A stretch of 64,000 bases of DNA, taken from the NCBI GenBank assembly GCA_050084515.1, contig CM114271.1, positions 46,562,001 to 46,626,000 on the forward strand, written 5' to 3'. Below the pieces are notes generated by a model. It did not search any database. It was not told the origin of the DNA and worked only from the letters and a program-made list of their open reading frames with translations. The DNA comes from Blasia pusilla. Lineage: Eukaryota. The position numbers and the translations under genes are program-made. How positions within the stretch are numbered: the first letter of the stretch is position 1; each line of letters opens with the position of its first letter. This document shows positions 40,270-64,000 of this stretch, piece by piece.

Positions 40270-40740
40270 ACATTGGTCTAATGACATTTGAAAGCTTGGC
40301 TATTGTTTATCGTAAGGATATATTTGGATATACTACCATTCCTCGAGGGATTTATTATTTTGGGATTAGGAATTTCATGTTGGAGATTATATGTGCTTAA
40401 AGCAGTCAACATTGATATTTTTAGATATTACTACAAGACACACGATTTTGTGTATACGTGACGCGTTACGCATCAAAATCCTCATGTTGGAGGATCAAGA
40501 TAGTATGGTTTGGAAGGATCACGTGTGCAATTGCGTACTATGTCATCTTTCAAATCTAGATGAGAGAGTATATTCAAGCTTGGGAGTTGTACTAATAGGC
40601 TTGAGATATATGTTGTATGGATCTAAGATGGATATATCCATCATATTGGTTTGTGATGGTTTTTGTGGAGGGTATCATATGTTATGCTTCATTCCCACTC
40701 TTGATGCAGATCCCATTGAATAATAGGTGTGTGCTATATG
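40270..40740 (+). mobile_element. Degenerate integrase C-terminus and PHD fragment of the gypsy lineage
   Basis: TILCIRD...MVWKDHVCNCVLCHLSNLD...LVCDGFCGGYHMLC. Confidence 0.75.
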
Positions 40741-43879: not shown

Positions 43880-45560
43880 AAAGGATAAAAACCTCATCAT
43901 TATTCATCAACCACTTTAGATGGTTGATGGAGTCTAACAAGCCTATAGAAAAGCTTGCCAGATGGGCACTCTTCTTGGGGGAGTATGGTTTTCAATCTGT
44001 CCATCACCTCAAAATTCTAAACCAAGATGCAAACGGGTTGAGCGGTAATCCATACATGTGCTAGAGCGATGGAACTAGAGCTTAGTGGTATGGTGAGAGT
44101 GATGACAAGATGATGTCGTGTTGGGACACATCTACCTATTTGTGTCTATTGGCTATGTTAGGTTACCAGAAGGCATCCACTCCAAGAAGGAGATTAGACA
44201 GTGAGTCTTTATATTCAAATGCTAGTGAGGAGTCAAGAGGGACTCGAGACATCCGTGATCATGATATGGTCTTGGAGTGCTTATGCACTAATGTCTTAGC
44301 ATACACAGTGGGTACTACAAAGTGGGATTGAGTCTTATAGCAAGCATGGATTTTCAAATGGGATGGAAAGTAGGTGCTTTGAGTTTAGGAGAATGATCAA
44401 GTGCTGATAGTACCACATCCTTCACAATGTGCACAAGTTTTTAGACATGCTCACAAGGAGTTGGGCCATTTTGGATTCAAGCATATGTATAGCTTGCTTT
44501 AAATTCAATATTGGTGGCATAGTATGCAGATTGATGTTCAACATTTTGTAGCTAGATGCATAATATATGATACGATGTGGGCATCGTTCAATGCTCGGAC
44601 GTCACTCTTTCATCCTTTATTGATCACAGAATTAGGGTATTGCTAAAGTTTAGACTTTGCAAAGCCCTTACCATTGACAAGATTTGGTATGTGTTGGTCA
44701 TGGTGGAGGATTTCTCCAAATGGATTGAGTTGGTAGCATTGCTGGAAAATCGAGCAAGAGAGCATCTTATACATTTCTTAATCAAGTGATGAGTTATTTT
44801 GGCACACCAATAGAGGTGTTGTTAGAAGAGGGTATTAAGTTTAAGGATGACTTTCAAGCCTTATGTGATCAAGCACTCATAGATCATCATACAACTTCTC
44901 AAGATCATTTTAAGGCAGATAGTTTGGAGAGTTATGTGAGAAAGTTGTGAAGATGGTGAAGAGAGGATTGAGTATGCATAGGCTACAAAGATGACACTTA
45001 GGAGGTTGGGACCTACAGTTGCTCTGGTTGAAGAAGGATTACCGCTTGAGTCGATATATATCCTTGACATCATTTTCATCGTATTTCTTGCTCTATGGGA
45101 AAGAGCCAAATTTCTATCATATATGCGATAGGATGTTGTTGAGGTACTTGAACTTGATGACCCATATGTATTCTTAGTGGGCTAAGCTCCTTTGGAGAGT
45201 CATGCCTATGGCATTGGAGAATCTGGCTAGCACTCAATATTGCAATGCTCTGAGATAGGGGACGACGAGTGGAGAAGGCTATCGACCAGAGATTCGGAAA
45301 TTCCATCCTTGCAATTATGTCTACCAAAGGTAGATAGCATTGAAGATATTTGACCTGACGGCAAGACACACTATTTTGCGAGTGTGAGAGGCTTTCTCTT
45401 TAAGCGTTCTCGTGTTAGAGGATAGAGATGGTATTGTTTGGAAAGATCATATCCATAATTGTCTGTCATGTTATCTTCATAACATTGATGGGAGTGTCAA
45501 TCCAAACTTAGCAATTATTCCTACATGCTTGAGATATGTTTTGTCTGGGTCTACACAATA
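43880..45560 (+). mobile_element. Degenerate RNase H, integrase and PHD start of the gypsy lineage
   Basis: HQPL..WLMES, HKELGHFG, YVLVMVEDFSKWIELVAL, DGIVWKDHIHNC. Many stops. Confidence 0.8.
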
Positions 45561-47369: not shown

Positions 47370-49309
47370 TCACCTATATAGAGAAAAACCTCTTCAAGAC
47401 TCACCTTGGGATTTACTAACCTCTCTCCTCACCCAGATCTCCAAGAAATTGACATGTCTTCATAAATTACAAAAGGGATGCCAACAAGTCATCATTATAC
47501 TATGAGATTCTAAGCCTATATGGAGATTCTCTATCATACTACATTATATTTTTTGGCTTGATTTCAACTAGAATTACACTTAACTCTCATTAACAATCAA
47601 GAGCTATCTCTTCCAATCAAGAAAGCCAACCATGGTCCTAAATAACTTCTCTAAAATGATAAGTAACGTAATATGGGCCCGATAATACCAACGTAGGCAA
47701 TAAATTACAACCAATTTTCATACAAGCATGCATATCAATGCTTGACCTCTCTAAGTATGTCACACAAAGTTACTCCTCTCCATTACAAATGACGTGTAAT
47801 AACGGAGTCATAAATTATAGGTTCCAAGTTTATAAAATTGTCTCTTTTCCAAAAGAAAAGAAGAGTGTGTGCTTCTTCAAATCACTCGTCCCAAGTATTT
47901 GCTAGTTTAATGGTTTGTGTGACTTGAGATGTTATGTTTCTTCGTCATCGATCCATGTTCATACACTCTCATACGATAGACATCCCTCATGTGTCAAGGG
48001 GAGATGGAGCAAGATGTTGATCTATCCCAAGTATGAGAAGTACAACAATTAAGAATCCAATCACCATTGATTTCTCAATAGTAATAATTTTGTGTAAGTC
48101 TAAGCACATGAACTCCATTCATTTCTCTCTTTAATGTTGCAATTATTTAGCACTAACTTATTTTGAGAGAAAATTAAACATAAAGGAAATTTGTATTTTT
48201 TTAGGATTTGGTTGTGGAAAAAAAATCTAAAATGTAATGTCTTAAGGGTAGTGAGAAGTTAAGAAAAAATGGTTGCAAGCTAAAGAAAAAAGATCTTTTG
48301 CAAGAAAAAAATAATAATTGATCATTTTTTTAAGATAAAGACATATCTATCTAAGAAGGTGTTTGAAGAGAGTGCATAGTCTCCAATAGCAGTAAAGATT
48401 GATTAAGATGAGGGGGGTTTACCAAACCGAATGTATGTAATCCTAAAAAAAATTTTCAATAGGACTTGTGTAATACTCCTTGGTGTTTGAGAGATCCAAA
48501 ATCAGGGCTATTTCAAATCCTAAACCCATGTAAACTCTATTAAAGTTTTAATTATTTTGTTGTAAAAAACATTTAGAATAAAATTTGGCAAGAAATTAAA
48601 AAATCTAATAATTGTGTCAATAGAGAAAATTATTTCAAAATATAAATCGTAGAAGGTAGTGAAAATTTCAGGAAAAATAGTGGAGGGAAGACAAGGATAT
48701 AATTTTCATAAACCAAAAGTTTAATAATGAATGATGGAACGAACAAAAATTGAGGAGCCTAAGCGTCTCCTGTCCATATCTTTGGTTCTATATCCCTCCT
48801 CTCATATTTGTGCTCTCCATCCATTGGATGATTTCATTCATGTATGTAAGAAGGGTATGACTTTCACTCTTGAATCTTGTGGGTATATGAAAACCTAAAG
48901 ATCTGACAACTCAAAACTTTCGTTCAACCCTTTAGCACAATTTTATTCCTTATGACTATGATTTTGTGATAGTAGGATTTCTCAAAGCATACCTACCCCA
49001 AGTTTTATGACTTAGTCACCAATTCGTAAAAAGAAAAAATAGGGTATTTAAGGAGGTACTTGCTTGGGTTGTAGCACATCACCATAATCCTTGAACACTC
49101 AAATATAAACCTTACATTCTTTAAAAGCAAAAAATATAATAGATGCCACAATTTATTGGTTAGAGGCCACATATGTGTAATCTCTAAAGGCTATGGCTCA
49201 TGGCCCACACAAGGGGACTTTGGGAAGCCCTATTGAGATCACACTAAACTTGTAGATTCCATTGAGAAGCTTGTAGGGACTCAAAATTGTAATAGGGTCT
49301 GAAAGTAAA

Positions 49310-50034
49310 AAAAATGCACTTTCTTATAGAAAAAAAGTCTCAAAAAGGATAAAGGAAGGCAACAACATGCCAAGAAGAGAATGAGTCAAGAAACATAAAA
49401 AGAAATTTGCAAGAAGCCATCACAAAAACCAACTCAATGAGCTACATAATGAATAACTTGAAACAAATCTCACAGAAACATTAGACGTTTACATGGATGG
49501 TCAAACAAAAATGGATGACAAGATTAGTGGCTACCAACCACTTCCGCTCGATGTGTCAAATCCAATGCTTGTGCACGTTGTAATGCCACCAGGATATATT
49601 GTCAAAAATAAGTAGTGACTATGGAGAGAGAAGGATTACGATAAGGGACGAGTTGATGATTCTTGAGGAACTAGTGAGCACATCTTTTGAAGAGATAATC
49701 AAAAGACACATATAAGTGCCCAAAAAAATCTACTATGAAAGGAATAAATCCATCGGTAATATGTCTCACCACATAACTCCTTGATTCTTGTTGATGTATT
49801 GGCCACAATAACTTTAGTATATACATCCTGACACACCACATCATAAAATATTCACTTAGCAAACCATCACATCACCCAATAGATGAAAGTCACCTTGGGA
49901 CATAACAAGATAAACTCATTCACAAGAGGTTGCTTGTGTAGTAGAAGGTAGGACGTGTAGTTACTCTTGCCCAACGATATACCTTGTTGTAGGAGCCATC
50001 AATAATATTTCCTCTCTAATCACATTGTGGGTTT
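49310..50034 (-). mobile_element. Degenerate 3' end of a second CRE-like element, interrupted by the gypsy insertion
   Basis: Collinear with 14165-14885 (e.g. gaggttgcttgtgt.gt.gaaggtaggac.tg.agtt.ctcttgcccaacg). Similarity stops at the TGTCAT start of the gypsy element. Confidence 0.8.
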
Positions 50035-50400
50035 TGTCATGACCATACGGATTATGTCGTAGAGTATGGTGTGCTAGTAGAGGCCATTCCTTATGTAGGA
50101 CCATAGTGGCTTGGTAGAAATGCGGTTCCATACATAGGGTTGGGGGTTACTCAGTTGGGGGTGACTTTCCCAGTAGGGCCCGCTCTTAGGTTGGAGGATA
50201 TAAGGTGGAGTGCACTCAAAAAATCGATTCTTTGAGTTGAGCCTTTATGCGTTGGGAGTTAGCCTTGGTAGTGAGTAGAGCTCTTGGCTATGGTGTTTCC
50301 CGCAAGCTTCGACCTAGATTCTCCCATCGTGGAGTGGGTTTGGCTCGATTGTATGTGATTGTATATGTGTTTTATGACAGTACGTCTTTCACGGATTTCA
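50035..50400 (+). repeat. 5' terminal repeat A1 (TG...CA, 366 bp) with TATA box
   Basis: TGTCATGACC...ATTTCA; TATAA at 50199-50203; homologous to 53559-53926 (-) and 63938-64000. Confidence 0.9.
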
Positions 50401-52226
50401 CTCAAAGAACTGCAGTTGATCGATGGTAGCTTCGATTGTAGATCAGTAGGATTTGGTTAGGGCTGATTGTGTACTCAACCGTGGATGTTCGTGGCTTGTG
50501 GCCTATGTTGGAGGTGTGAATCTGGTGCGTGGTTGGTTGGGAAAGAAGCGCCTTGCTGAGAGCTTTCCAACGCGCTTTAGATCGCCGGATTTCGTCAAGG
50601 GAGTTGGAAGTTATCAAGGATTGAAGATTCTGGTTCGTGTTCGACGGTTTTCTGATGTGGAGAACTTGGAGTGCGGAAGCTCTATTGAAGTTCATCCAGA
50701 TCGGGTGAGAGGTTCCTGCTGCTACTTGTATTGTGATCTCATGTGAATCTATCTGCTCGAGTGTGTGGAGCGTTGCGGATTTCTGCGTGCATGAAACTTG
50801 GCGGAAGCGCTGTCGGATTTACGATTCTGGAGGTGTATGGACAGCAAGTTTGTCTGATTTTTAGCTCGGAGTACAGAGCTCGGTTGTAGCTGATTTTTTG
50901 TGGAGAGATAGCTATGGTGGTCAATTGAATTTTGGTTGAAATATATTTGATTTCAATCACGGATTTGTGAAGTAATTTCTGATCGAAATTTCACGGACTA
51001 GCTCAAGGTCTGGCTATGGTGGACAGCGGATCGGAGGGGCTGGTTGGTTGGTGACTCGTTCATTGTTGGAGACGCCTATCCCGTTGGAGGCGCCCTGGTT
51101 GAGCCTCGAGCCATGTCTCGGAGTTTTGAGGCTTCGAGGCTTCGAGGCAACTCGTGGTAGCTCGGGGCGAGTGGGCGTGAGAGGCGGAGTAAGGAGCAAG
51201 GAGCAAGGAGCAAGCAAGCAAGTTCAACTGGAGTTTTATGGCCCTGACCAGGATCACTTTGAGTGGAAATCCGTTATAGGTGGTTTGAATTAATATTTTT
51301 GCAAACGGCACGTAGCAGGTTTTATACTTGCTTGCTTGGGCGTGAAGCAATTTTTGCAGGATTTGGGATTTGAGTTTTGCATAACTGGTCACCCATCTTT
51401 GGGCTATTCTACCTAGAGGACGCTTAACTGTTGGGTTCTTAACTATGCCAGTGTACACACTGTTGTAGCTCATTTGGTGTTGTTCGGAGATGTGTTAGGC
51501 ACTTTATGCATCTCAGGTTTTTGGTTGATGTACCTCTAGCGCATAGTACGGTGTAGCCTCTCCATACAGGTGATATTTTCAGGTGCTGTGAGTTCGACTA
51601 GCACGTCATCGACCCGCGGCGGAGTAGCTATTGCGTTAGAATTGTGTGGTGGGTTTTGTGGATTCAGGGGGCACCACCTTTGGTGGATTATGTTACCTTG
51701 AATTCCATTTGCGATTGGAGGGTTGTCGTTGGACTTCCTGTGTTTGGATCCCCTCCATCGGTGCTTCTTGCTAGCGCGCCCATTGTTAGGGTAGACGCTG
51801 ATTTCCAGAGTAGTGTTACTCCTGTGTGCTACTGATAGTGAGGCTGGAGTGATGACGAGTAGACCGTGGGAGGCTTCTTGTGGTGATGAGAGGTTAGGTT
51901 GCCTACACCCATAGCTAGTAGAGCTACACTAGTAGAGCGACATCGACGTCACTTGGTAATTTGGTGGTGGTGCGGCATCGGCATTGGTCATCACGGAGTT
52001 GTCGGGTGGTCTGGTTGGGGACCGTGGTGCGGACAGTGGTGGTTTCACACGGAGTGGATTTAGGTATCGGCTACCTTTTCCACTTCCGACGGTTGATGAA
52101 GAGGAGGACGAGGGTGTTCCAAACACCGAGTCTTCTACGTTGTTATCGAGTGTTGCAGCTCCATTGATTTGGGACATGGACGGTGGATATGGAGCCATGA
52201 AGGGCCCACGATGATACTCGGGTGCA

Positions 52227-53452
52227 GTGGGCACCATTGAGTTGGAGGACTTCATGCAGGAGTTTGATACGTGGTGTGATATGCAGATGTTGCGGAACGC
52301 CACGTTGTTTACATCCTTCTTGGCTTGGAAGGGGTTGTTTCAGCACTTGGAAGGACCACCCATGGATGATTACCATGAGTTTAGGAAGGACCATGTTGCT
52401 GAGATTGAGGCATGGAGACAATATTGGTCTCCAGGCTATGTGTCTATCACCCATGGTGGTATTGGTAGTAGTGCTCCTACTATGCCAGCCAGCCCGACGT
52501 TGAGTGGTACGAGTACGAGCCGGAGTGGGGGTACCAATGGAGGTACTAGTGGGGGTACTAGTGGAGGTTCTAGTGCCCCACTATCGTTCAGCCCGGTTGC
52601 AGAGTTCTTCAAGAGGTTGAAGAAGAACTATCAGGGAGTGAAGACGGAGAAGTTGAGGAATCTTTAGGACTTTGAGCGAAAGACTGGTGAGAGTCTTCGT
52701 GAGGCATACATTCGTATCACGCTGATTTCGATTACCAAGGTGTGCGAGGATCGAGGCGATCCATTTTTGGTATGGGATCTTGGAGAGAGATTTGCGCCGC
52801 AGGGTACGTGATGCTACTCTTATGAGTGATGATTCACCCACATTGACCCATGTATTTGCTTTATCTGAGAAGATTGAGCTTAACATGATGAAGGAGAGAG
52901 TGGTGACATCCGCATTCAGTAGGGATACAACTACTACTTCTCGTGTTCAGCCGCCCACCTCACAGTCTCGTAGTAGTGGTGGTGGTAGTAGTAGTGGGAG
53001 TCGTGGGGGGTACACACGACCTCAGTCAAGTCCTAGAGGGACACTTGCGCAGAGACCATTGCCTTCATTTGCTGCCCCGCAGCAGGGCGATCATGTTGGA
53101 CATGTGGAGGTGATCATGTTAGGAAGTTTTGTCCCCAAGAGGATGGGAGACGGACTTTGGAGGATGGGCCTCAGTCGGCCCCAACTAAGTGTGATGATTG
53201 TGGGAGACCAGGTCATCCTCGAGAGCGTTGCTTTGATCTTCATCCAGAGTTGAGATCAGGCCGCGGCCGTGGTGGAGTAGCTCTGAGAGGCCGAGGTGGT
53301 AGAGGTGGTAGGGGTGGACCAATGGTTGGAGAGCCTACGGTGGCTACCCCTACCACTACGACAGAGTCAGCTATGGCTACCAGGATTGAGCAGTTGGAGC
53401 AGAAGTTGGCTACTATGGCTGGTATCCAGCATAGATCAGGTTCGGGAGCAGG
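52227..53452 (+). pseudogene. gag with two zinc knuckles (frameshifted, truncated by the nested insertion)
   Basis: Capsid-like ELEDFMQEFDTWCDMQ...FFKRLKKNY; knuckles CWTCGGDHVRKFC (~53094) and CDDCGRPGHPRERC (~53190); RGG-rich tail. Confidence 0.8.
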
Positions 53453-56400
53453 TGTCGTGCGAATCCACATCGTCATACAACATACATCGCTGACATACCA
53501 TACGCACATACATACATAACATAGACGAGAGTATCCACAAAGGCAAGTGTACCACAATTGAAATGCGTGAAAGACCTACTGTCATAAAACACGTTTACAA
53601 TCACATACAATCGAGCAAAGCCCACTCCACGATGGGAGAATCTAGGTCGAAGCTTGCGGGAAACACCATAGCCAAGAGCTCTACTCACTACCAAGGCTAA
53701 CTCCCAAGCATAGCAGGCTCAACTCAAAGAATGATGTTCTTTGAGGGCAAGCCACCTTATATCCTCCAACCTAAGAGCGGGCCCTACTAGGAAAGTCACC
53801 CCCAAGTGAGTAACCCCCAACCCTATGTATGGAACCACATCTCTACCAAGCCACTACGGTCCTACATAAGGAATGGCCTCTACCAAAGACACCATACTCT
53901 ACGACATAATCCGTATGGTCATGGCGGTGTCGTGCGAATCCACATCGTCATACAACATACATCGCTGACATACCATACGCACATACATACATAACATAGA
54001 CGAGAGTATCCACAAACGCAAGTGTACCACAACTCGCCCCCCTAACTGGCGGTTAGGTCCCTCTAACTCCCAGGTAGCCCTATACATCTACTACATGCTA
54101 TACACCTTCTTGGGTGCCCGAATCAGAAGGCCGGGTGCTAGGTTGCCCCATCGTTAGTCGCACATCGTAATCCATATCATGCAAAGATCAAGTCATCTAC
54201 CTCTCCTAAGTACATCGAGGACAAACCCACCTTCCAGTAGGAACAACATCCAAACGTGGAGTCAAACACATCATGTGCCAACCCCTAGAACACCGATCAC
54301 ACACCAACATACGGGTTGCGTTACCAGCAGACCCACACAACATGCACCTCAAGCTAGCACGTATCATGGCTAAGCTTGGGTCAACAATACCATCCACATT
54401 TGGAAGATGACATGGCGCACAATTACGCACATGGTCCTTCCAAACAACTCCATCACGACCCTCCAACATGAGAACTCGAAGCTAACACCTCACACACTCG
54501 TAAAATAGTGCGGCTGCCATCACATCCAACGTTGTCGGGCAATCTGCTGCAAATAGACATAGTCCCCACATGGAACCTACTGAATCGATGGTAGATAACC
54601 TCCACTCGAATGGTTGCATACCGCAACGTATCCTGTGTTGAGCAATGGCAAGATTCTCAAAGGTTGTTGGCATAACTCTCCGAAGAGCTCCGCCCCGAGA
54701 ACACACCCTCATCCACATCTCGGGTCATCAAGGTTCACCACCTCACTAGACTCGACAATTCTTTCTTTGGCAAGTCAAGATCTCGACCGTATAACAGAAA
54801 ATAAGGTGAGAAGGAAGCCAAGGATGCTTGGCGATCGAACCTATATCCCATGGCTAACCATGGCAAGCTCGAATATCCTGTCTCCAAGATGCCCTTCAGA
54901 GGCCATACTTGCGCAATGCCCTCTTCACCGTCGAACCACATGCTCAGCCAAACCATCCGCCTCTGGATGATCTCGAGGCGTGGTCCGATGATCAATCAAC
55001 GCCTTGTCACACAAGACATGAAACTCACCTGAAACTCAGACCCTGGTCGGTCAAGACACTTCAGTGGTGCACCAAAATGACTAAGCACTCTATCCAAACG
55101 CATACGCCGTTCCTCACTTGCCTTGTCCGGTAATGCCACCAACTCAATCCACTTGGAGAAGTGCTCCACCATCACCAACACATATCGATGATGTAAATGC
55201 GGTGAACGGTAACGGTCCCGCAAAGTCCACACTCCAACGGTAACCCAACCCCATAATAGGCAAGGGGTGTAATTGTGGTGTAGGGGCATTAAATGATGCC
55301 CTCACCGGTCACAAACCATACAACGTGACACGAATGCTGCACCTGAGTATGCATGCCACGCCACCAATCTTGGCCAAGGAGTAAGCTATACGCACGCTTT
55401 ACCCCAAAATGTCCCAACTCCTCATGGACATGTCGCACAATCGCTCTCTCTCGAGCCAAATGTGGCACTACTCGTACTCTACCATCCTCCCACACGCGGA
55501 GAATATGTGTTCCCTCAATCGATACCTCTTAGCACGTTGAAGAACACGGTCTCGCTCCTTGGCACTCACTATGCCTGGCACCCTCTTTGGTCCGTAGGAA
55601 CTCCAACACCAACGCATCATCATGAATATCACGCTGATCCGTACCACCATCTCCAACCTTAGGATCTGAAGGCTGGCCGTCTACCCTCTGACTAGAGTAA
55701 GATATCATGTGGTCCTCCATACTAGAGTCCACCCCTAACCAACATAAAAAGGCGGATGCATGCCAACCTGGCACCATCTCCTCATCAACCTCGCCATGCC
55801 ATCTAGCCCCAGTTGTATCCTCTTGGCTAGTACATGGGTTCCTACTCAACCCATCAACATCAAGGTTGGCAACTCCAGGTCTATGTACCACCTGGAAGTC
55901 ATACTCCTGTAAGATAAGAGCCCACCGTGCAAGCTTCCTTGTAAGCTTGTCCGACTCCATCAACCACTTGAGCGGCCGGTGATCAGTAACAAGGGTAAAC
56001 TGTGTGCCAAACAAGTAACACCTAAAGTGTGCCACAGCCCACACTATTGCCAAGCACTCTCCCTCATATGAACTATAGCGCGACTCCGCTGCATTATTCG
56101 AACGACTTGCATAGGCCACCACAAACTCCATGTGCTCATCATCATATTGTGTCAACACCGCTCCAAGTCCCAACCTACTCCAATCAGTGTGTAACTGGAA
56201 TGGGCGCCCTCTGATAGGTCTCCTCAAGATAGGCGCCGCCACCAACTGGGCCTTAAGCTCCACAAAAGCTCTCTCTTGATCATCTCCCCAGTGCCACTCT
56301 TGATATGATTTCAGCAATTGGTTCAAAGGCTTTGCCATAGCACTAAATCCCTTCACATACCTCCGATAGTAGTTCGCCAATCCCATGAATGCTCGAACTC

Positions 56401-59400
56401 TACTCACATCTACCGGACGCGGAATAAGTGCAATAGCCTCCACCTTTGCTTGCTGAACTCCCAAACCACCTGGATAGATCACATAACCCAAGTACTCAAC
56501 ATCCTCATGGAAGAACTTACACTTTCCTGGATGCAAACGTAGACCATGAGCTTTCAACCGCTCAAACACCATCTGCAAATGTATTTGATGCTCCTCCACC
56601 GTGTTACTGAACACCAAGATATCATCAATGTAACACCGAACAAAATCCAACCCTGCTAGGATCCTGTCCATCACTCTTTGAAACTCGGAAGGTGCATTCT
56701 TCAACCCAAAGGGTAAGAATTTCCACTGGTACAAACAATCCTTGCCATGAGAGTTGACATCCCAAAATCGTTGTCTTGGCCTTGTCACTCTCCCGAATCG
56801 GCAATTGATGGTATCCTGCCCGAAGATCCAAAGTACTGAAAATCTTTGCCTGTCCCACCACATCAAAGATCTCCTCAGGTGTAGGCATGGCATACCTATC
56901 GGCCTTGGTTTGCCGATTGATAGGACGGTAATCTCCACACATCCGCCTATCCGTGTAGTTGCCATGCATATCCTTTTTAGCAGGCATGATAGTGGTTGAT
57001 GCATACTCTCCATGCGACAACTCCACTAATCCAGCCTCCAAAAGGTCCAACGTCCTACTCTGAATCAAGTCCCTCTCCATATCACTATATCGGTAGGGAC
57101 GACAGAAGATTGGCGTATCACTAGCCAAATCAATCCGTATACCGGGTCCAACCAGAGAACCCAACTCCTTCATGCTAAAGGCAAAACAACTCCTATAAGC
57201 ACGTAGGAGGCTGTGTCAGCGTCGTTTCTCACCTCCCGTAGCTTGGGCCCAAGTAATGGCTCCCAAGTCTCCTCCTTTGGCACACTAGAGGGAGAGGCGA
57301 TGCCATTGTCTGCTCATAACCCCCTCACAAGATGGTACACCCTTAGCTACACCATCATCCGAGCAAATAACTCCTCCACCAAAGCATGAGCAACCAACTC
57401 CACATGCCCACCATTACATCCCATCTACTCCAAGGATGCAAAATACTACTCTCCTCTTGACCGATGCCTCTACCGTCCCGGTAGCCATCGAGCTCATTAC
57501 AAGGGGTGGAAGACCCATGACATAGTCCGAAGTCGATTTGCTCGGCCATACCAAGACTCAAAATCCAAGTCAAACAATTCAGGTCCATGGCGACCCAACA
57601 CATGACGTCGTGAAGCCTCGAAATAGAAGCAACATTTGTCACACCGATGCAAATCCCATCGCACGCTCTCTCTCATCAGCGTTAGGCTCCACCAATTGTC
57701 GCACATGAGAATCCCATACAAGCCCCCAGGACCACCTTCCTGTAGGCATGTGACGAGGAAAACTCACAAATGTGGGTAGTGCCATCTAGGGGTGGCCCAC
57801 ACGGTTCACCTTGCCATGGGTGACCGATCAATAACCCTCACCACTTGAGAAAGTCGCCCAAGATATCAAGATACTATCCATTGTAAGGCGAGATCATTGC
57901 CTTTGCATCATATGCTCGACGTAGAACCTCCCTAGGCAACAAGTTTGTCCACCACAAGCGTGGGCGATGTGCACGTGAGCCAACTCGCATTGCATCCAAC
58001 AACACCGCTGGTCCAATCCAAGACCGCACCTCATGAACACTCGCCATCATCCGGGTCCGAGTGTCACCCAACAATGGAACATTCTCCAAAATGCTAAGCT
58101 AGAGCACGCGCTTGCGATGAACATTGAAGATGTCGTAACACCCGTAACATCTCCCAAAACAATCGAGCTAGGGTCATGTAATCCCTCACCACGACCAAAG
58201 ACGTGTATGACATCTCGACATGGCCATCCGATGCAAATCACCAAATCCACAGGACCAACCTCTCAAGGTCCTGCGCTCAACAATGCAATGTGTGATGGTA
58301 AAGCATCGGTACCCACGAATAGCTAATGGCGGCAACAATGGGGGGATACCTCCATCAAGCGACCAATATGTGGATGAGACTCTCGGTGGGCGACCGTCTC
58401 ATCTCGCTCCACATACACGTATATCCCTAAGAGGAATACCGGCTGCAACATGGATGCATTACCAAACGTGCTGATCCCACCAAAGAGATCTAACACACAA
58501 ATTGCCCTATGTTGGCGAGTGGGATCTTGCCATACAATGGGTGTAGTATCCAAAGGGGATAACCCAATAGAGTCTTGTTAGGAGTCCGTGGGGTCTCCTC
58601 TTTGATGGGGAAAGCGGCATGACCTCACACCAAGCCTCTGCACTAGGCTTGAGCCTTGCCCATTCTAGATTCAAACATCAAAGTGGCACATCCAACGATG
58701 AGGATGCCAATTCTGCAAAAATAGGGACCTCCTCTACCTCCTCATGAGGAGAATCCATAGCAGAAACATAACCCTCCAAAAGTCTCTGGCCAAGTGACTA
58801 CTCCACTAAAACCACCCGTATGATGCTAACATTGTTGGGGAAGACCCTCCTAGTCGAGCCCCCAAATAAATCTCAGATGGAACTTGGCTCATACGTCCAT
58901 CCCCGGATTGCCAACCAGGTCTGTAAGACGTTGTCTCGATTTATTTAATCCATCTGAAAACCCATCGGGTCTTCTCCTCCAACTAGTACATCATACGACT
59001 GGTTTTAGTGGATGTGACTCACTTGGCAGATATTCCCAAGGGAGCTTTCGCGTCGCATGATTGGTCTCAATGAGGTACAAAAAACTTCTCCCTATCATGA
59101 ATTGAGATCTATCATTGGCTCCTCCAAGTGATGTTTGAATCTAGAATGGGCAAGGCTCAAGTTCGCCCTCGAATACCCCAAACCAATACATGCCGCCTTG
59201 CCCAACATCAAGGGCTGCGCTCCTGAGTCTAACAAGACTCTATCCGGTCTATACACTGCCTTGTAGGACTCACCAATCGGAAGATCCCACTCCGGTTGTC
59301 CAACATACATACACCAGGTGTAAGCCTTCACGATCAATGGTTGGCCGTCGATGTAATGCATCCATCTTCGCGGTATTCTGCCTGCCGGAAGTAACGTGGT

Positions 59401-59735
59401 ACTCAATGCTACACGAGATAGAGGGTCGCTCACCGCAACATCCTCATCCACCTCAACACGTGAGCAAGAATACACCCCCATGTTCACACAACCGCTATTA
59501 GCTGAAATGGGTACCAGGAGCTAAGTCAACTCCTAAAGCCATCACATTGCATTGAAAAAATGGGGGGAACACCGGTTGCCATCCGTCATCTGATGGATTT
59601 GCATCCGTGTCTACTGGACACCAATGTAGATGCCTCGGTCCCCCCGTCTGCCGGCTCAATAGGTGAGGAACCATGGATGGAGTCCTTGTTTTGGACAACA
59701 AGAATGACGGGAAGCGACATCTCGAGGTTCAATAC
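53453..59735 (-). mobile_element. Nested inverted copy of the same family (5'-truncated): PR, DNMT, RT, RH, INT, PHD, B1-A2-B2
   Basis: Protease VLLDSGAQ (~59230); DNMT 57550-58510; RT YIDD; RH DWS...EGECLA; INT; PHD 54209-54345. PPT 54032-54045, B1 53928-54031, A2 53559-53926, B2 53453-53556. Its repeat variants differ from those of the outer copy. Confidence 0.85.
57550..58510 (-). pseudogene. C5 DNA cytosine methyltransferase domain within the gypsy pol (frameshifted)
   Basis: Motifs in canonical order: I VLDLFGGIS, IV DLVICIGWPC...GEGLHDPSS, VI ENVP, VIII DAMRVGSRAHRPRLWWTNL, IX-X EPNADERER.MGF / RRHVLG..MDLNCLTWIL. Confidence 0.85.
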
Positions 59736-59749
59736 CGTGCTCTAGCTTA

Positions 59750-60300
59750 CATTTTGGATAATGTTCCATTGTTGGGTGACACTCGGACCGGATGATGGCG
59801 AGTGTTCATGAGGTGCGGTCTTGGATTGGACCAGCGGTGTTGTTGGATGCAACGCGAGTTGGCTCAGCGTGCACATCGCCCACGCTTGTGGTGGACAAAC
59901 TTGTTGCCTAGGGAGGTTCTCGTCGAGCATATGATGCAAAGGGCGGGATCTCGCCTTACAATGGATAGTATCTTGGATCTTGGGCGACTTTCTCAAGTGG
60001 TGAGGGTTATTGATCGGTCACCCATGGCGGTGGTGAACGTGTGTGGGCGGCCTACGATGGCACTACCCACATTTGTGAGTTTTCCTCGTCACATGCCTAC
60101 AGGGAAGGTGGTCAGGGCTTGTATGGGATTCTCATGTGCGACAATTGGTGGAGCCTAACGCTGATGAGAGAGAGCGTGCGATGGGATTTGCTCGGTGGTG
60201 TGACAGCGGTTGCTTCTATTTTACGAGGCTTCACGACGTCATGTGTTGGGTCAGGCCATGGACCTGGAATTGTTTGACTTGGATTTTGAGTCTTGGTATG
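59750..60300 (+). pseudogene. C-terminal half of the DNMT domain in the outer copy
   Basis: DNVPLLGD, RAHRPRLWWTNL, EPNADERERAMGF and HVLGQAMDL fragments across frameshifts. Confidence 0.8.
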
Positions 60301-60540
60301 GCGAGCGTCGACTTCGGACTATGTCGTGGGTCTTCCACCCCTTGTAATGAGCTCGATGGCTACCGGGGACGGTAGAGGCATCGGTGGGGCGCAGGAGAGT
60401 AGTATTTTGCATCCTTGGAGTAGATGGGATGTAATGGTGGGCATGTGGAGTTGGTTGCTCATGTTGGTGGAGGAGTTATTTGCTCAGATGATGGTGTAGC
60501 TAAGGGTGTACCATCTTGTGAGGGGGTTGCGTAGCAGCCA

Positions 60541-63500
60541 ATGGCATCGTCCTCTCCCTCTAGTGTGCCAGTGGAGGAGACTTGGGAGCCATTACTTGGG
60601 CCCAAGCTTACGGGAGGTGAGAAACGACGCTTGACACAGTTCCTACGTGCTTATAGGAGTTGTTTTGCCTTTAGCATGAAGGAGTTGGGTTCTCTGGTTG
60701 GACCCGGTATACGGATTGATTTGGCTAGTGATACGCCAATCTTCCGTCGTCCCTACCGATATAGTGATATGGAGAGGGACTTGATTCAGAGTAGGACGTT
60801 GGACCTTTTGGAGGCTGGATTAGTGGAGTTGTCGCATGGAGAGTATGCATCAACCACTATCATGCCTGCTAAAAAGGATATGCATGGCAACTACACGGAT
60901 AGGCGGATGTGTGGAGATTACCGTCCTATCAATCGGCAAACCAAGGCCGATAGGTATGCCATGCCTACACCTGAGGAGATCTTTGATGTGGTGGGACAGG
61001 CAAAGATTTTCAGTACTTTGGATCTTCGAGCAGGATACCATCAATTGCCGATTCGGGAGAGTGACAAGGCCAAGACAAAGACATTTTGGGGTGTCAACTC
61101 TCATGGCAAGGATTGTTTGTACCAGTGGAAATTCTTACCCTTTGGGTTGAAGAATGCACCTTCCGAGTTTCAAAGAGTGATGGACAGGATCCTAGCAGGG
61201 TTGGATTTTGTTCGGTGTTACATTGATGATATCTTGGTGTTCAGTAACACGGTGGAGGAGCATCAAATACATTTGCAGATGGTGTTTGAGCGGTTGAAAG
61301 CTCATGGTCTACGTTTGCATCCAGGAAAGTGTAAGTTCTTCCATGAGGATGTTGAGTACTTGGGTTATGTGATCTATCCAGGTGGTTTGGGAGTTCAGCA
61401 AGCAAAGGTGGAGGCTATTGCACTTATTCCGCGTCCGGTAGATGTGAGTAGAGTTCGAGCATTCATGGGATTGGCGAACTACTATCGGAGGTATGTGAAG
61501 GGATTTAGTGCTATGGCAAAGCCTTTGAACCAATTGCTGAAATCATATCAAGAGTGGCACTGGGGAGATGATCAAGAGAGAGCTTTTGTGGAGCTTAAGG
61601 CCCAGTTGGTGGCGGCGCCTATCTTGAGGAGACCTATCGAGGGCGCCCATTCGATTACACACCGATTGGAGTAGGTTGGGACTTGGAGCGGTGTTGACAC
61701 AATATGATGATGAGCACATGGAGTTTGTGGTGGCCTATGCAAGTCGTTCGAATAATGCAAATGGAGTCGCGCTATAGTTCATATGAGGGAGAGTGCTTGG
61801 CAATAGTGTGGGTGTGGGCACACTTTAGGTGTTACTTGTTTGGCACACAGTTTACCCTTGTGTTGATCACCGCCGCTCAAGTGGTTGATGGAGTCGGACA
61901 AGCTTACAAGGAAGCTTGCACGGTGGGCTCTTATCTTACAGGAGTATGACTTCCAGGTGGTACATAGACCTGGAGTTGCCAACCTTGATGTTGATGGGTT
62001 GAGTAGGAACCCATGTACTAGCCAAGAGGATACAACTGGGGCTAGATGGCATGGCGAGGTTGATGAGGAGATGGTGCCAGGTTGGCATGCATCCGCCTTT
62101 TATGTTGGTTAGGGGTGGACTCTAGTATGGAGGACCACATGATATCTTACTCTAGTCAGAGGGTAGACGGCCAGCCTTCAGATCCTAAGGTTGGAGATGG
62201 TGGTACGGATCAGCGTGATATTCATGATGATGCGTTGGTGTTGGAGTTCCTACGGACCAGTAGGGTGCCAGGCATAGTGAGTGCCAAGGAGCGAGACCGT
62301 GTTCTTCAACGTGCTAAGAGGTATCGATTGGAGGGAACACATATTCTCCGCGTGTGGGAGGATGGTAGAGTACGAGTAGTGCCACATTTGGCTCGGAGAG
62401 AGCGATTGTGACAGCGACATGTCCATGAGGAGTTGGGACATTTTGGGGTAAAGCGTACGTATAGCTTACTCCTTGGCCAGATTGGTGGCGTGGCATGCAT
62501 ACTCAGGTGCAGCAGATTAGTGTCACGTTGTATGGTTTGTGACCGGGTGAGGGCATCATTTAATGCCCCTACACCACAATTACACACCCTTGCCTATTAT
62601 GGGGTTGGGTTACCGTTGGAGTGTGGACTTTGCGGGACCGTTACGTTCAGCATGCGACATCATCGATATGTGTTGGTGATGGTGGAGCACTTCTCCAAGT
62701 GGATTGAGTTGGTGGCATTACCGGACAAGGCAAGTGAGGGAACGGCGTATGCGTTTCTGGATAGAGTGCTTAGTCATTTTGGTGCACCAGCTGAAGTGCT
62801 GACCGACCAGGGTACAGAGTTTCAGGGTGAGTTTCAGGTCTTGAGTGACAAGGCGTTGATTGATCATCGGACCACGTCTCGAGATCATCCAGGGGCGGAT
62901 GGTTTGGCTGAGCGTGTGGTTCAGACGGTGAAGAGGGCATTGCGCAAGTATGGCCTCTGAAGCGGCATCTTGGAGACAGGATGTTCAGTTGCCATGGTTA
63001 GCCATGGGGTATAGGTTCAGTCGCCAAGCATCCTTGGCTTCCTTCTCACCTTATTTTCTGTTATATGGTCGAGATCCTGACTTGCCAGCAGCAATTCGTC
63101 AGGAGTCTAGTGAGGTGGTGAACCTTGATGACCCAGAGATGTGGATGAGGGTTTGTTCTCAGCGGGCGGAGCTCTTCCGGAGAGTTATGCCAACAACCTT
63201 TGAGAATCTTGCCATTGCTCAACACAGGGATACGTTGCGGTATGCAACCATTCGAGGTGGAGGTTATCGACCATCGATTCGTAGGTTCCATGTGGAGAAC
63301 TATGTCTATTTGCAGCAGATTGCACCGACAACGTTGGATGTGACGGCAGGCCGCACTATTTTACGAGTGCGCGAGGTGTTAGCTTCTGGAGTTCTCATGT
63401 TGGAGGGTTGTGATGGAGTTGTTTGGAAGGACCATGTGCGTAATTGTGCGCCATGTCATCTTCCAAATGTGGATGGTACTGTTGACCCAAGCTTAGCCAT

Positions 63501-63660
63501 GATACGTGCTAGCTTGAGGTGCATGTTGTGTGCATCTGCTGGTAACGCAGCCCGTATGTTGGTGTGTGATCGGTGTTCTAGGGGTTGGCACATGATGTGT
63601 TTGACTCCACGTTTGGATGTTGTTCCTACTGGAAGGTGGGTTTGTCCTCGATGTACTTAG
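60541..63660 (+). pseudogene. pol: RT, RNase H, integrase and PHD finger (several frameshifts)
   Basis: RMCGDYRPIN, FSTLDLRAGYHQ, LPFGLKNAP, YIDD; RH EGECLAIVW; HHCC zinc region (HEELGHFG...CMVC); catalytic core VEHFSKW, LTDQGTEF, GLAER; terminal C4HC3 PHD CMLC...CDRC..GWHMMC...WVCPRC. Confidence 0.93.
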
Positions 63661-64000
63661 GAGAGGTAGATGACTTGATCTTTGCATGATATGGATTACG
63701 GATGTGCGACTAACGATGGGGCAACCTAGCACCCGGCCTTCGATTCGGGCACCCAAGAAGGTGTATAGCATGTAGTAGATGTATAGGGCTACAGGAGTTA
63801 GAGGGACCTAACCGCTTGATTAGGGGGCGAGTTGTGGTTTTGTGTGTTTGTGGATACTCTCGTCTATGTTATGTATGTATGTGAGTATGGTATGTCAACG
63901 ATGTATGTTGTATGACGATGTGGATTCGCACGACATTTGTCATGACCATACGGATTATGTCGTAGAGTATGGTGTGCTAGTAGAGGCCATTCCTTATGTA

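What the first reader, a model, noticed from the sequence alone, without database searches (positions are those of the whole stretch)
57550..60300. Ty3/gypsy retrotransposon encoding its own C5 DNA methyltransferase between protease and RT
Seen: motifs I (VLDLFGGIS), IV (GWPC catalytic), VI (ENVP), VIII (AHRPRLWWTNL) and IX-X (EPNADERERAMGF..VLG.AMD) lie in order between the DSG protease and RT. The set is complete in the inverted copy and the C-half is present in the outer copy, so this is a family feature rather than a one-off capture. Known: DNMT capture by retrotransposons has been reported in dinoflagellates and charophyte algae; I am not aware of it as a standard land-plant gypsy feature. 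Inference: being part of the polyprotein, it would be packaged in the particle and could methylate the cDNA or the new insertion.
Basis: partly seen in the sequence, partly recalled or inferred. Interest (0 to 1): 0.92.

Follow-up and report, generated by a model that had tools for sequence, protein, structure and literature searches.

The report
Dead retrotransposon copies carrying DNMT3 domain
Two decayed, oppositely oriented copies of a plant jumping gene that carries its own DNA-methylating enzyme domain, a kind first described in a green alga in 2018 and here traced through liverworts, peat mosses and their algal relatives.

Summary
C5-methyltransferase motifs I, II, IV, VI, VIII, IX and X lie in order on the minus strand (58496 down to 57565), between a DSG protease and the RT. 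The C-terminal half recurs on the plus strand (59736-60496).

Neither copy can encode anything. The minus-strand domain is spread over three frames, with about 16-21 frameshifts and 2-3 stops. Seven of the 10 plus-copy frameshifts coincide with minus-copy ones, so the two copies are not independent witnesses.

Evidence for a family feature comes from outside the window:
- Uninterrupted relatives exist in Marchantia, Sphagnum, Riccia, Calypogeia and Closterium, and a Klebsormidium nitens protein has the same gag-PR-DNMT order.
- All 6 relatives tested pass PF00145.
- Their profile and an AlphaFold model match DNMT3A/B best.
- The catalytic Cys is kept in 135 of 136 domains.
- dN/dS between the window and related loci is 0.25, against 0.16-0.17 for RT-RH.

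The family also carries a PHD finger on the integrase and DIRS-like split direct repeats (X...Y-X-Y). The 2018 paper notes DIRS-like repeats for KnitGypsy-Dnmt3.

Verdict: a decayed land-plant member of the known Gypsy-DNMT3 lineage. It is a new member of a known kind, of moderate interest. Enzyme activity and cDNA methylation remain untested.

The parts
50035..50400 (+). 5' terminal repeat 'X' of the outer (+) element. It starts TG and ends TTTCA, and no 'Y' unit precedes it.
   Evidence: 93.2% identical to 53923-53559 (inverted), and 50033-50097 equals 63936-64000. Sequence read.
52176..53445 (+). gag of the outer element, with a CCHC knuckle seen by eye. It has 2 frameshifts and 2 stops.
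   Evidence: tblastn of Marchantia P0016 residues 1-424, E 2.3e-116. Frameshift-aware alignment gives 68% identity. Pfam found no family in 3 of 3 gag pieces.
53453..54034 (-). 3' terminal split repeats of the inverted copy: Y1 54034-53928, X 53925-53559, Y2 53558-53453. A G-rich purine run lies just 5' of Y1. The copy ends inside the outer element's gag.
   Evidence: 107-nt direct repeat at 99% with spacing 475. Sequence read. The same Y-X-Y layout occurs in loci L039, L042 and L069.
54212..54346 (-). PHD finger at the C-terminus of the integrase (inverted copy)
   Evidence: PF00628, 44.6 bits, E 1.5e-11, cut-off 24. Nearest solved PHD fingers are listed.
54347..55528 (-). Integrase region of the inverted copy, in broken frames
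   Evidence: Aligned with the plus-copy integrase, which carries rve PF00665 at 46.6 bits. ORF pieces listed.
55630..57283 (-). RT-RNaseH of the inverted copy, with only 2 frameshifts and 1 stop
   Evidence: RVT_1 E 4.9e-25 and RT_RNaseH E 1.1e-36. 78% identity to Marchantia P0022.
57358..58577 (-). DNMT3-like C5 methyltransferase domain with motifs I to X in order, broken by about 16-21 frameshifts and 2-3 stops
   Evidence: In the best frame it is 64% identical to P0004.
58578..59094 (-). Spacer between protease and DNMT. It is conserved in relatives and also broken here.
   Evidence: Frameshift-aware alignment to P0022 residues 61-395 spans 59508-58510 at 53% identity, with 12 frameshifts and 3 stops.
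59095..59520 (-). Aspartic protease (LLDSGAQ at 59215-59235)
   Evidence: ORF, motif, aligned to the protease of P0022. Pfam found no family in this piece. Relatives hit Asp_protease_2.
59735..59736 (.). Junction where the inverted copy (truncated at its 5' end, without gag and 5' repeat) abuts the outer copy, which resumes in mid-DNMT
   Evidence: The inner ends of the inverted duplication are 58108 and 59736. The plus-copy profile match starts at profile position 172.
59736..60496 (+). C-terminal half of the DNMT domain of the outer copy (just before motif VIII, through motif X), with about 8-10 frameshifts
60566..62217 (+). RT-RNaseH of the outer copy, with 5 frameshifts and no stop
   Evidence: RVT_1 at 115.4 bits. 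78% identity to P0022.
62412..63660 (+). Integrase (rve) with a C-terminal PHD finger (63520-63654) in the outer copy
   Evidence: rve at 46.6 bits and PHD at 42.2 bits, E 8e-11
63830..64000 (+). Start of the outer copy's 3' repeats: Y 63830-63935, a 2-nt spacer, then X from 63938 to the window end
   Evidence: Sequence read. Repeats.

Best explanation
The region holds two decayed copies of one retrotransposon family with the order gag, protease, DNMT3-like methyltransferase, RT-RNaseH, DDE integrase, PHD finger. The ends are split direct repeats (X ... Y-X-Y) rather than plain LTRs. A minus-strand copy inserted into the gag of a plus-strand copy. One deletion then most simply explains the loss of the inserted copy's gag end together with the outer copy's protease and N-terminal DNMT half; this step is inferred. 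Both copies are pseudogenes. They belong to the Gypsy-DNMT3 lineage first described in Klebsormidium nitens, and here it is found in a land plant. For active members the most likely mechanism is inferred, not shown. The methyltransferase is translated as part of Gag-Pol and travels with RT and integrase. It then methylates the element's own new DNA, either the cDNA or the fresh insertion. The integrase-borne PHD finger steers integration towards chromatin with unmethylated H3K4.
For: Anatomy:
- ORFs and Pfam hits for RT, RNaseH, rve and PHD.
- An inverted duplication, 53863-58108 against 64000-59736, 95.6% identical over 4305 columns.
- Terminal repeats read directly.

Reality of the DNMT domain:
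- Colinear profile hits down to E 4.7e-39 and tblastn E 6e-44.
- PF00145 is passed by 6 of 6 relatives tested, at 29.0-40.8 bits against a cut-off of 22.
- The profile of relatives hits DNMT3A at E 6.9e-12, then DNMT3B at 1.8e-9, a plant 'DNA methyltransferase' (4onj) at 3.7e-6, DRM2 at 1.4e-3 and M.HhaI at 0.017.
- An AlphaFold model of relative P0004 has pLDDT above 90 across the domain. Its best Foldseek match is DNMT3A 6w89_A, E 5.6e-19, TM 0.83.

Family feature and constraint:
- 304 clusters at E<=1e-30 and 1001 at E<=1e-10 among 1.84 billion representatives.
- A 2358-aa open frame holds PR, DNMT, RT, RH, INT and PHD (P0219).
- Among 136 domains the catalytic Cys is kept in 135, the ENV Glu in 136 and the two Arg in 134 and 135.
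- NG86 dN/dS between the window copies and 33 related loci is 0.25 for DNMT and 0.16-0.17 for RT-RH.

Link to the Klebsormidium elements:
- GAQ93235.1 of K. nitens scores 214.5 bits to the profile, is ordered gag-PR-DNMT, and aligns at 34% identity over 335 residues (E 2e-50) with the Marchantia DNMT domain.
- The split separating PR-DNMT types, including K. nitens, from RT-RH-DNMT types has support 0.967.
- The X...Y-X-Y repeats, with 4-bp target duplications, occur in the window and in loci L039, L042 and L069. The 2018 paper's Fig. 4c legend says KnitGypsy-Dnmt3 repeats are arranged as in DIRS (PMC5890265, passage read).
Against: - No window piece reaches PF00145 (0 of 8 pieces at E<=1).
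- In this window the protease-DNMT segment is far more broken than RT-RH or gag: 15-19 breaks per kb against 1.8-3.2. Locally the domain looks less protected than RT.
- Only 3 of 80 related metagenome loci keep motifs I-X in one open frame.
- dN/dS among those loci is 0.57 for DNMT and 0.40 for RT-RH.
- Codons for dN/dS were picked by a protein-guided alignment, which biases dN downward, and dS of about 0.85 is near saturation.
- No host DNMT3 or DRM sequence could be fetched, so the tree is unrooted. A second, independent capture from a host DNMT3 is not formally excluded.
- The isolated KnitGypsy-Dnmt3 domain gave no detectable methylation in yeast, a result the authors called inconclusive (PMC5890265, passage).
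- 62 of 136 domains have Glu-Cys instead of the canonical Pro-Cys in motif IV.
- CpG observed/expected is 0.65 in the element and 0.66 in the whole window, so there is no trace of special self-methylation.
Confidence: 0.8

Rival explanations
1. Independent capture. A bryophyte gypsy lineage picked up a host DNMT3 catalytic domain on its own, and its likeness to the Klebsormidium elements is convergent.
For: Capture of DNMT3 by unrelated elements has happened more than once: DIRS in dinoflagellates and Gypsy in K. nitens (PMC5890265; bioRxiv 10.64898/2026.05.21.726589). The DNMT tree has no host DNMT3 or DRM in it.
Against: The K. nitens protein has the same gag-PR-DNMT order. Stretches outside the classical motifs are shared across 335 residues. 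The same unusual split repeats are present (figure legend read). Closterium members fall in the same PR-DNMT group. The profile gives 176-373 bits to the top 150 proteins, including K. nitens at 214.5, but only 48 bits to human DNMT3A.
Confidence: 0.1
2. The domain is kept in the family but does not methylate the element's DNA. It might act on RNA, on host DNA, or serve a structural role in the polyprotein.
For: No activity was detected for the KnitGypsy-Dnmt3 domain in yeast, which the authors called inconclusive. Motif IV is Glu-Cys in 62 of 136 domains. The element shows no extra CpG depletion.
Against: Catalytic Cys, ENV Glu and the Arg pair are almost invariant. The fold and the best sequence matches are DNA-acting DNMT3A/B/C rather than DNMT2. 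SymbioDIRS-Dnmt3 domains do methylate CG in yeast.
Confidence: 0.25
3. The many frameshifts in 57300-60500 are assembly or consensus errors near the centre of an inverted repeat, and the real copies are much less broken.
For: Breaks here are mostly 1-2 nt indels: 57 of 60 indel events between the arms are 1-2 nt. They cluster around the centre of the palindrome. Related loci from elsewhere decay mostly by stop codons, with 0-1 frameshifts per DNMT domain in the 33 well-covered loci. Contigs of public runs differ in length from the window at 12 listed places, with 70 more not shown.
Against: Seven of 10 plus-copy frameshift places coincide within 10 nt with minus-copy ones, where I estimate about 3 would be expected by chance. 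At the listed places a large share of the contig depth in run X1 agrees with the window. There are also 2-3 stop codons. The arms differ by 141 substitutions, so they are old copies and not a mirrored artefact.
Confidence: 0.12
4. The methyltransferase motifs belong to a host DNMT gene that was disrupted by transposon insertions, not to the element.
For: None beyond the presence of the motifs.
Against: Single open frames in other species run from protease through DNMT into RT (P0017, P0022, P0054, P0219). Both window copies show the same order and the same junctions with RT.
Confidence: 0.01

Closest known systems
KnitGypsy-Dnmt3 of Klebsormidium nitens (de Mendoza et al. 2018, PMC5890265; passages read)
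   Same: A non-rearranged Dnmt3-type domain sits inside the polyprotein of an element with gypsy domains. A K. nitens protein, GAQ93235.1, shows the same gag-PR-DNMT order. The repeats are arranged as in DIRS (legend of Fig. 4c). The domain is under purifying selection (paper: Ka/Ks < 0.2; here 0.25 between lineages).
   Different: The host is a land plant: a BRX-type gene lies next door (seen by eye) and the nearest relatives are bryophyte. DNMT domains are only about 35% identical to the K. nitens one. The passages I read of the 2018 paper do not mention a PHD finger (0 occurrences), whereas this family has one on the integrase. I did not confirm that GAQ93235.1 is one of the copies the authors named. 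The window copies are dead.
Host DNMT3A/3B/3C de novo methyltransferases
   Same: They give the best sequence and fold matches. Motifs I-X are in the standard order. The motif VIII stretch AHRxR..W.N is shared (alignment).
   Different: About 20-22% identity. There is no PWWP or ADD domain next to the catalytic domain. Instead, a PHD finger sits far away on the integrase. The domain is embedded in Gag-Pol.
SymbioDIRS-Dnmt3 of dinoflagellates (PMC5890265)
   Same: A retrotransposon-borne Dnmt3 domain in Pol, with split repeats (A-coding-B-A-B).
   Different: Those elements use a tyrosine recombinase. This family has a DDE integrase (rve) and 4-bp target duplications.
Chromoviruses (Ty3/gypsy with a chromodomain on the integrase)
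   Same: A chromatin-reader module is fused to the C-terminus of the integrase.
   Different: The element also carries a methyltransferase and has split repeats instead of LTRs.
EpiLTRs of Cymbomonas and Euglena (bioRxiv 10.64898/2026.05.21.726589; passages read)
   Same: LTR-type elements that combine a cytosine methyltransferase with a chromatin reader.
   Different: According to that preprint, those DNMTs are sister to DNMT4. They sit at another position and come with an adenine methyltransferase and a chromodomain.

Membership tests
C5 cytosine DNA methyltransferase (PF00145) | Conserved motifs I (FxGxG), IV (PC), VI (ENV), VIII (RxR), IX and X in order | tested here: met
   All are located in order on the minus strand. 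There are colinear profile hits. The motif names are recalled from general knowledge of the family.
C5 cytosine DNA methyltransferase (PF00145) | Score above Pfam's gathering threshold | tested here: not met
   0 of 8 single-frame window pieces hit at E<=1. Intact relatives pass: 6 of 6 (29.0-40.8 bits, cut-off 22), and K. nitens at 58.4 bits. A read-through of the window copy was not sent to Pfam.
C5 cytosine DNA methyltransferase (PF00145) | An open reading frame that could yield an enzyme | tested here: not met
   About 16-21 frameshifts and 2-3 stops in the minus copy. The plus copy is truncated, with about 8-10 frameshifts.
DNMT3 subfamily | Closest to DNMT3 among solved methyltransferases, by sequence and by fold | tested here: met
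   Tested on relatives. The profile hits DNMT3A at E 6.9e-12, ahead of 3B, 3C, DRM, DNMT2 and M.HhaI. The top Foldseek matches are all DNMT3A/B/C, TM 0.80-0.83 normalised by target length.
DNMT3 subfamily | Branches within the DNMT3 clade in a rooted tree with DNMT1, DNMT5, DRM and bacterial enzymes | not tested
DNMT3 subfamily | PWWP and/or ADD reader domains N-terminal to the catalytic domain (as in animal DNMT3; recalled) | tested here: not met
   Pfam shows only protease upstream and RT downstream. A single PHD finger lies on the integrase instead.
Ty3/gypsy LTR retrotransposon | Pol order PR, RT, RNaseH, DDE integrase | tested here: met
   for the window. for complete relatives.
Ty3/gypsy LTR retrotransposon | The same long terminal repeat at both ends | tested here: not met
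   The 5' end carries X only and the 3' end carries Y-X-Y. This holds in the window and in L039, L042 and L069.
Ty3/gypsy LTR retrotransposon | Short target-site duplication and TG...CA ends | tested here: met
   4-bp duplications flank L069 and L042. Ends are TG or TA ... CA. This is not testable for the window copies, because one end lies outside the window and the other is deleted.
Gypsy-DNMT3 lineage (KnitGypsy-Dnmt3) | Dnmt3-type domain inside the polyprotein of an element with gypsy domains | tested here: met
Gypsy-DNMT3 lineage (KnitGypsy-Dnmt3) | Repeats arranged as in DIRS elements | tested here: met
   compared with the wording of the Fig. 4c legend. The figure itself is not held.
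Gypsy-DNMT3 lineage (KnitGypsy-Dnmt3) | DNMT domain groups with K. nitens element copies | tested here: inconclusive
   The unrooted tree has the split (PR-DNMT types including K. nitens | RT-RH-DNMT types) at support 0.967, and the pairwise E-value is 2e-50. No host DNMT3 is in the tree.
DIRS order | Tyrosine recombinase instead of a DDE integrase | tested here: not met
   rve and Integrase_H2C2 are found. No phage-integrase family appears in any Pfam table.
Chromovirus | Chromodomain at the integrase C-terminus | tested here: not met
   A PHD finger (PF00628) is found there instead.

The most novel reading that the evidence does not exclude
The window samples an old, green-lineage-wide clade of DDE-integrase retrotransposons with DIRS-like split repeats. 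Each carries a two-part chromatin kit: a DNMT3-type methyltransferase, and a PHD finger of the kind whose nearest solved relatives mostly read unmethylated H3K4 (recalled). Together these mirror the catalytic and ADD modules of host DNMT3. The PR-DNMT form runs from Klebsormidium and Closterium into liverworts, Sphagnum and this host. The RT-RH-DNMT form fills chlorophycean algae. If members are still active in bryophytes, element-encoded de novo methylation becomes testable in a tractable land plant such as Marchantia.
Probability: 0.45. Interest if true: 0.7.

Novelty: new member of a known kind. Interest (0 to 1): 0.5.

Why it matters
Retrotransposons that carry their own cytosine methyltransferase have been documented for dinoflagellates and one streptophyte alga, and what the enzyme does for the element is still unknown.

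This window shows that the same lineage lives, or lived, at high copy number in a land plant. Annotated relatives sit in the reference proteomes of Marchantia polymorpha and Sphagnum. That moves the open question into organisms with genetics and methylome tools. The question is whether the enzyme serves self-silencing, camouflage of new DNA, or protection of cDNA.

It is also a practical warning. In bryophyte gene sets these models are labelled 'DNA (cytosine-5-)-methyltransferase' or 'hypothetical protein', so they can inflate counts of host DNMT3 genes.

In seven literature searches I found no paper that describes the bryophyte or chlorophycean members, the PHD finger, or the two domain orders. 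Supplements were closed and many journals are not in the library, so this is not proof that it is unpublished.

Tried and rejected
- Pfam on single-frame pieces of the DNMT region gave no PF00145 hit. I therefore turned to intact relatives.
- No genome is held for the window, so no census of other copies in the host was possible.
- The look-up of sequencing runs returned coded organism names. The best holder had 0.32 of the words, and no RNA holder was listed. This says nothing about expression.
- The protein-atlas search gave only PF00145-labelled clusters with no taxa recorded.
- CpG observed/expected is 0.65 in the element and 0.66 in the whole window, so there is no special depletion.
- dN/dS between the two window copies is unreliable, because codons next to frameshifts are misaligned. 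I do not use it.
- C>T accounts for 140 of 260 stop-creating changes in related loci. This is not interpretable as deamination, because the genetic code itself favours C>T routes to stop codons.
- I saw no obvious tRNA primer-binding site after the 5' X repeat by eye and did not test further.
- Two further gypsy-like stretches of the window (17984-18565 and 43897-44379, which tblastn aligned to the RT-RNaseH part of P0022), and 44444-45552, which blastn aligned to the integrase, show no DNMT pieces nearby. They are too fragmentary to say whether a domain was ever there.
- Three name look-ups covered 30 of the proteins.
- One hit is labelled as a bacterial MAG. I take this to be a misbinned eukaryotic contig but did not check.


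Full report
**What is there**

The last 14 kb of the window hold two copies of one retrotransposon in opposite orientation.
- Self-comparison shows 53863-58108 matching 64000-59736 in reverse complement. Identity is 95.6% over 4305 columns, with 99 gap positions (the fragmented arms also appear).
- The 1.6 kb between the arms (58109-59735) is unique. Read on the minus strand it holds the N-terminal half of a methyltransferase-like region, a spacer, and a DSG aspartic protease.
- Upstream on the plus strand lie a 366-nt repeat unit (50035-50400) and a gag gene (52176-53445). The gag matches the gag of Marchantia protein P0016 at E 2.3e-116.
- The plus-strand element is therefore: 5' repeat, gag, [interruption], C-terminal half of DNMT, RT-RNaseH, integrase, PHD, 3' repeats. 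It runs off the window.
- The interruption is a minus-strand copy that begins with its complete 3' end at 53453, inside the outer gag, and runs up to 59735.
- The simplest history is a nested insertion followed by one deletion. The deletion took the inner copy's gag end and the outer copy's protease and N-terminal DNMT half. This history is inferred, not shown.

**Check of the observation**

- The motifs are not in one frame. On the minus strand, motifs I, II and IV and the EPNADERERAMGF stretch lie in one frame. ENVP, AHRPRLWWTNL and AMDLNCLTW lie in a second. FWEMLRVLRHLQ and RRHVLG lie in a third.
- A frameshift-aware alignment to an intact 472-aa relative (P0004) needs 21 frameshifts and 3 stops over 1417 nt, at 64% identity. 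Against Marchantia P0022 it needs 15 frameshifts and 2 stops over 884 nt. The plus-strand half needs 10 frameshifts.
- Pfam finds nothing in any of the 8 single-frame DNMT pieces, even at E<=1.
- The signal is nevertheless far above chance. A profile of 15 intact relatives hits 8 colinear minus-strand pieces (best E 4.7e-39, 5e-18, 1.5e-14, 2.6e-14) and 7 colinear plus-strand pieces. Among the remaining ORF pieces of the window (3336 in all) it finds only hits with E above 1.

**The two window copies are not independent evidence**

- I converted coordinates through the arm alignment. Seven of the 10 plus-copy frameshift places fall within 10 nt of a minus-copy one, where I estimate about three by chance.
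- The copies therefore descend from an ancestor whose methyltransferase region was already broken.
- Decay is very uneven along the element. There are 19.2 breaks per kb in DNMT and 15.0 in protease plus spacer. RT-RNaseH has 1.8 (minus copy) and 3.0 (plus copy), and gag has 3.2.
- The arms are also much more alike in RT (0-8 mismatches per 250 nt) than in the DNMT half or the integrase.
- I cannot explain this mosaic with certainty. Recombination or gene conversion that renewed the RT segment is one reading. Local assembly error near the centre of the palindrome is another, and I rate it at about 0.12.
- Contigs of public runs show the family at very high depth in the coded 'organism A': 33,536 contigs were laid from run X1, and all 30 bins were covered. 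These contigs differ from the window in length at 12 listed places, with 70 more not shown.

**What the domain is**

- A 120-aa plus-strand piece finds 33 proteins at E<=0.01, of which 19 carry PF00145. Named sources are Sphagnum troendelagicum, S. tenellum, Marchantia polymorpha, Riccia sorocarpa and Calypogeia fissa.
- Six of six relatives tested pass PF00145, at 29.0-40.8 bits against a cut-off of 22.
- Marchantia models P0017 and P0022 join DNMT, RT and RNaseH in one frame. P0016 joins gag, protease and DNMT.
- The profile of relatives finds DNMT3A first among solved structures (E 6.9e-12). DNMT3B, DNMT3C, a plant DNA methyltransferase, DNMT2, DRM2 and M.HhaI follow.
- An AlphaFold model of P0004, built with a 39-sequence alignment, has mean pLDDT 79.6, with block means mostly above 90 across the domain. 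All of its listed Foldseek matches in the PDB are DNMT3A/B/C. The best is E 5.6e-19, TM 0.83 normalised by target length, at about 21% identity.
- The motif order is the standard one, not the rearranged order of DRM.

**How large the family is, and whether the domain is constrained**

- Against 1.84 billion cluster representatives the profile finds 3174 proteins at E<=1e-3, 1001 at E<=1e-10 and 304 at E<=1e-30. The best 150 score 176-373 bits, and many are polyproteins of 1000-3400 residues.
- Two domain orders exist. The first is gag-PR-DNMT-RT-RH-INT-PHD, as in the window (for example P0219, 2358 aa, and P0054). The second is RT-RH-DNMT-INT-PHD.
- Named members of the second order come from Scenedesmus, Haematococcus, Chromochloris and Monoraphidium.
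- In a FastTree of 136 non-identical near-complete domains the two orders do not mix. The clade holding 27 of the 29 PR-DNMT-type domains (34 leaves) contains none of the other type. The split between all PR-DNMT types and all RT-RH-DNMT types has support 0.967.
- Across the 136 domains the catalytic Cys is kept in 135, the ENV Glu in 136, the two Arg of motif VIII in 134 and 135, and the motif IX Glu in 132.
- The residue before the Cys is Pro in only 65 domains and Glu in 62. The window has Pro.

**Selection measured on DNA**

- A scan of JGI metagenome contigs gave 80 loci of the window's subfamily.
- Only 3 of the 80 keep motifs I-X in one open frame.
- Their decay is mostly by stop codons. 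In the 33 loci where both domains are well covered, DNMT has 0-1 frameshifts and 0-9 stops, and RT-RH has 0-4 frameshifts and 0-9 stops. This contrasts with the indel-rich window copy.
- NG86 dN/dS among these 33 loci is 0.57 for DNMT and 0.40 for RT-RH. Both values are inflated by neutral decay after insertion.
- Between the window copies and the loci (dS about 0.85) it is 0.25 for DNMT and 0.16-0.17 for RT-RH.
- Over the longer divergence the methyltransferase was therefore conserved almost as strongly as the polymerase. Two caveats apply: codon choice was protein-guided, and dS is high.

**Relation to the known case**

- De Mendoza et al. 2018 (PMC5890265; passages read) described KnitGypsy-Dnmt3 in Klebsormidium nitens. 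[quoted passage not shown] Its activity in yeast was inconclusive.
- One of the top-150 representatives, P0093, is K. nitens GAQ93235.1. It is ordered gag(CCHC)-PR-DNMT. It aligns with the Marchantia domain over 335 residues at 34% identity, E 2e-50, including stretches outside the classical motifs.
- Four further PR-DNMT representatives are from Closterium species.
- The repeat structure agrees as well. In the window the 5' end carries unit X only. The inner copy's 3' end is Y(107)-X(367)-Y(106), with a purine run before Y1.
- Loci L039, L042 and L069 show the same X ... Y-X-Y layout. L069 and L042 have 4-bp target duplications, and element ends read TG or TA ... CA. That fits a DDE integrase and not a tyrosine recombinase.
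- I therefore file the window element as a member of the Gypsy-DNMT3 lineage.

**Extra module**

- Both copies end their integrase with a PHD finger: PF00628 at 44.6 and 42.2 bits.
- The finger recurs in complete relatives of both domain orders.
- Its nearest solved relatives are PHD fingers of KMT2C/D, CHD4, DPF2/3, ATXR5, KDM5A/B, PHF21A, UHRF1 and AIRE. From memory, most of these read the H3 tail with unmethylated K4. This is a lead, not a test.

**Mechanism**

- Shown: the domain is DNMT3-like, part of the polyprotein frame in intact relatives, catalytically conserved, and under purifying selection.
- Inferred: it is made as part of Gag-Pol and travels with RT and integrase. It acts on the element's own new DNA, as de Mendoza et al. 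proposed for elements that make cDNA before insertion (passage). The PHD finger biases integration towards H3K4-unmethylated chromatin.
- Nothing in the window tests this. CpG depletion of the element equals the window average.

**Novelty**

- The kind is known. A 2026 preprint already speaks of 'streptophytes (Gypsy-DNMT3)'. A 2025 paper says some DNMT3 members are embedded in retrotransposons.
- In seven searches and the passages read I did not find four things: the bryophyte and Closterium members, the chlorophycean form with the other domain order, the integrase PHD finger, or the 4-bp duplications with split repeats.
- Supplements were closed and may list some of these.

**Verdict**

The element is a decayed land-plant member of a known kind. 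Interest is 0.5.

Noticed in passing
54212-54346 (-) and 63520-63654 (+): A PHD finger (PF00628) sits at the C-terminus of the integrase, where chromoviruses carry a chromodomain. It recurs in complete relatives of both domain orders. The nearest solved PHD fingers are KMT2C/D, CHD4, DPF2/3, ATXR5, KDM5A/B, PHF21A, UHRF1 and AIRE.
   Followed up: partly
50035-50400; 53453-54034; 63830-64000; loci L039, L042, L069: The terminal repeats are split direct repeats (5' X only, 3' Y-X-Y), not LTRs. They are combined with a DDE integrase, and in two loci with 4-bp target duplications. Each Y-to-X junction has 2 variable bases between ...ACA and TG/TA..., like joined element ends.
   Followed up: yes
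57300-60500 against 55630-57283 and 60566-62217: Frame breaks are 5-10 times denser in protease, spacer and DNMT (15-19 per kb) than in RT-RNaseH (1.8-3.0 per kb) or gag (3.2 per kb). The two arms are also nearly identical in RT but about 5% apart elsewhere. The cause is unexplained: it may be a mosaic from recombination or a local assembly problem.
   Followed up: partly
Loci L001-L080 (metagenome contigs): Relatives in these contigs decay mainly by stop codons. In the 33 loci where both domains are well covered, the DNMT domain has 0-1 frameshifts and 0-9 stops. The window copy decays mainly by 1-2 nt indels.
   Followed up: partly
Proteins P0043, P0059, P0072, P0133, P0220 and others: A second domain order, RT-RNaseH-DNMT-integrase-PHD, fills a separate clade of the DNMT tree. 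Its named members are chlorophycean algae: Scenedesmus, Haematococcus, Chromochloris and Monoraphidium.
   Followed up: partly
136 aligned DNMT domains: Motif IV reads Glu-Cys instead of the canonical Pro-Cys in 62 of 136 domains (for example GWECQD), in both domain orders. The window has GWPC.
   Followed up: no
40370-40723 (+), 44444-45552 (+), 7593-8317 (-): These are older, more diverged stretches (64-72% at DNA level) related to the integrase, PHD and 3' part of the same kind of element. The ORF at 40370-40723 still shows a decayed PHD-like pattern by eye. No DNMT pieces were found near them.
   Followed up: partly
25783-27568 (+): Exon-like ORFs carry two BRX-type stretches (EWVAQFEPGVYITF..., EWVEQDEPGVYLTI...). 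By eye this is a BREVIS RADIX-like plant gene, and I took it as a hint that the host is a land plant. It was not tested with any tool.
   Followed up: no
823-1512 (-) and 14545-16173 (-); 49302-50025: By eye, 823-1512 is a Helitron-helicase-like ORF and 14545-16173 is a long LINE-type reverse-transcriptase ORF. The stretch 49302-50025, just upstream of the element, is 70% identical to 14151-14876.
   Followed up: no
Protein P0254: A polyprotein of the RT-RH-DNMT-INT-PHD family (RT, RNaseH, integrase and PHD on record) is filed in NCBI under a bacterial metagenome-assembled genome (Minisyncoccia). It is probably a misbinned algal contig.
   Followed up: no
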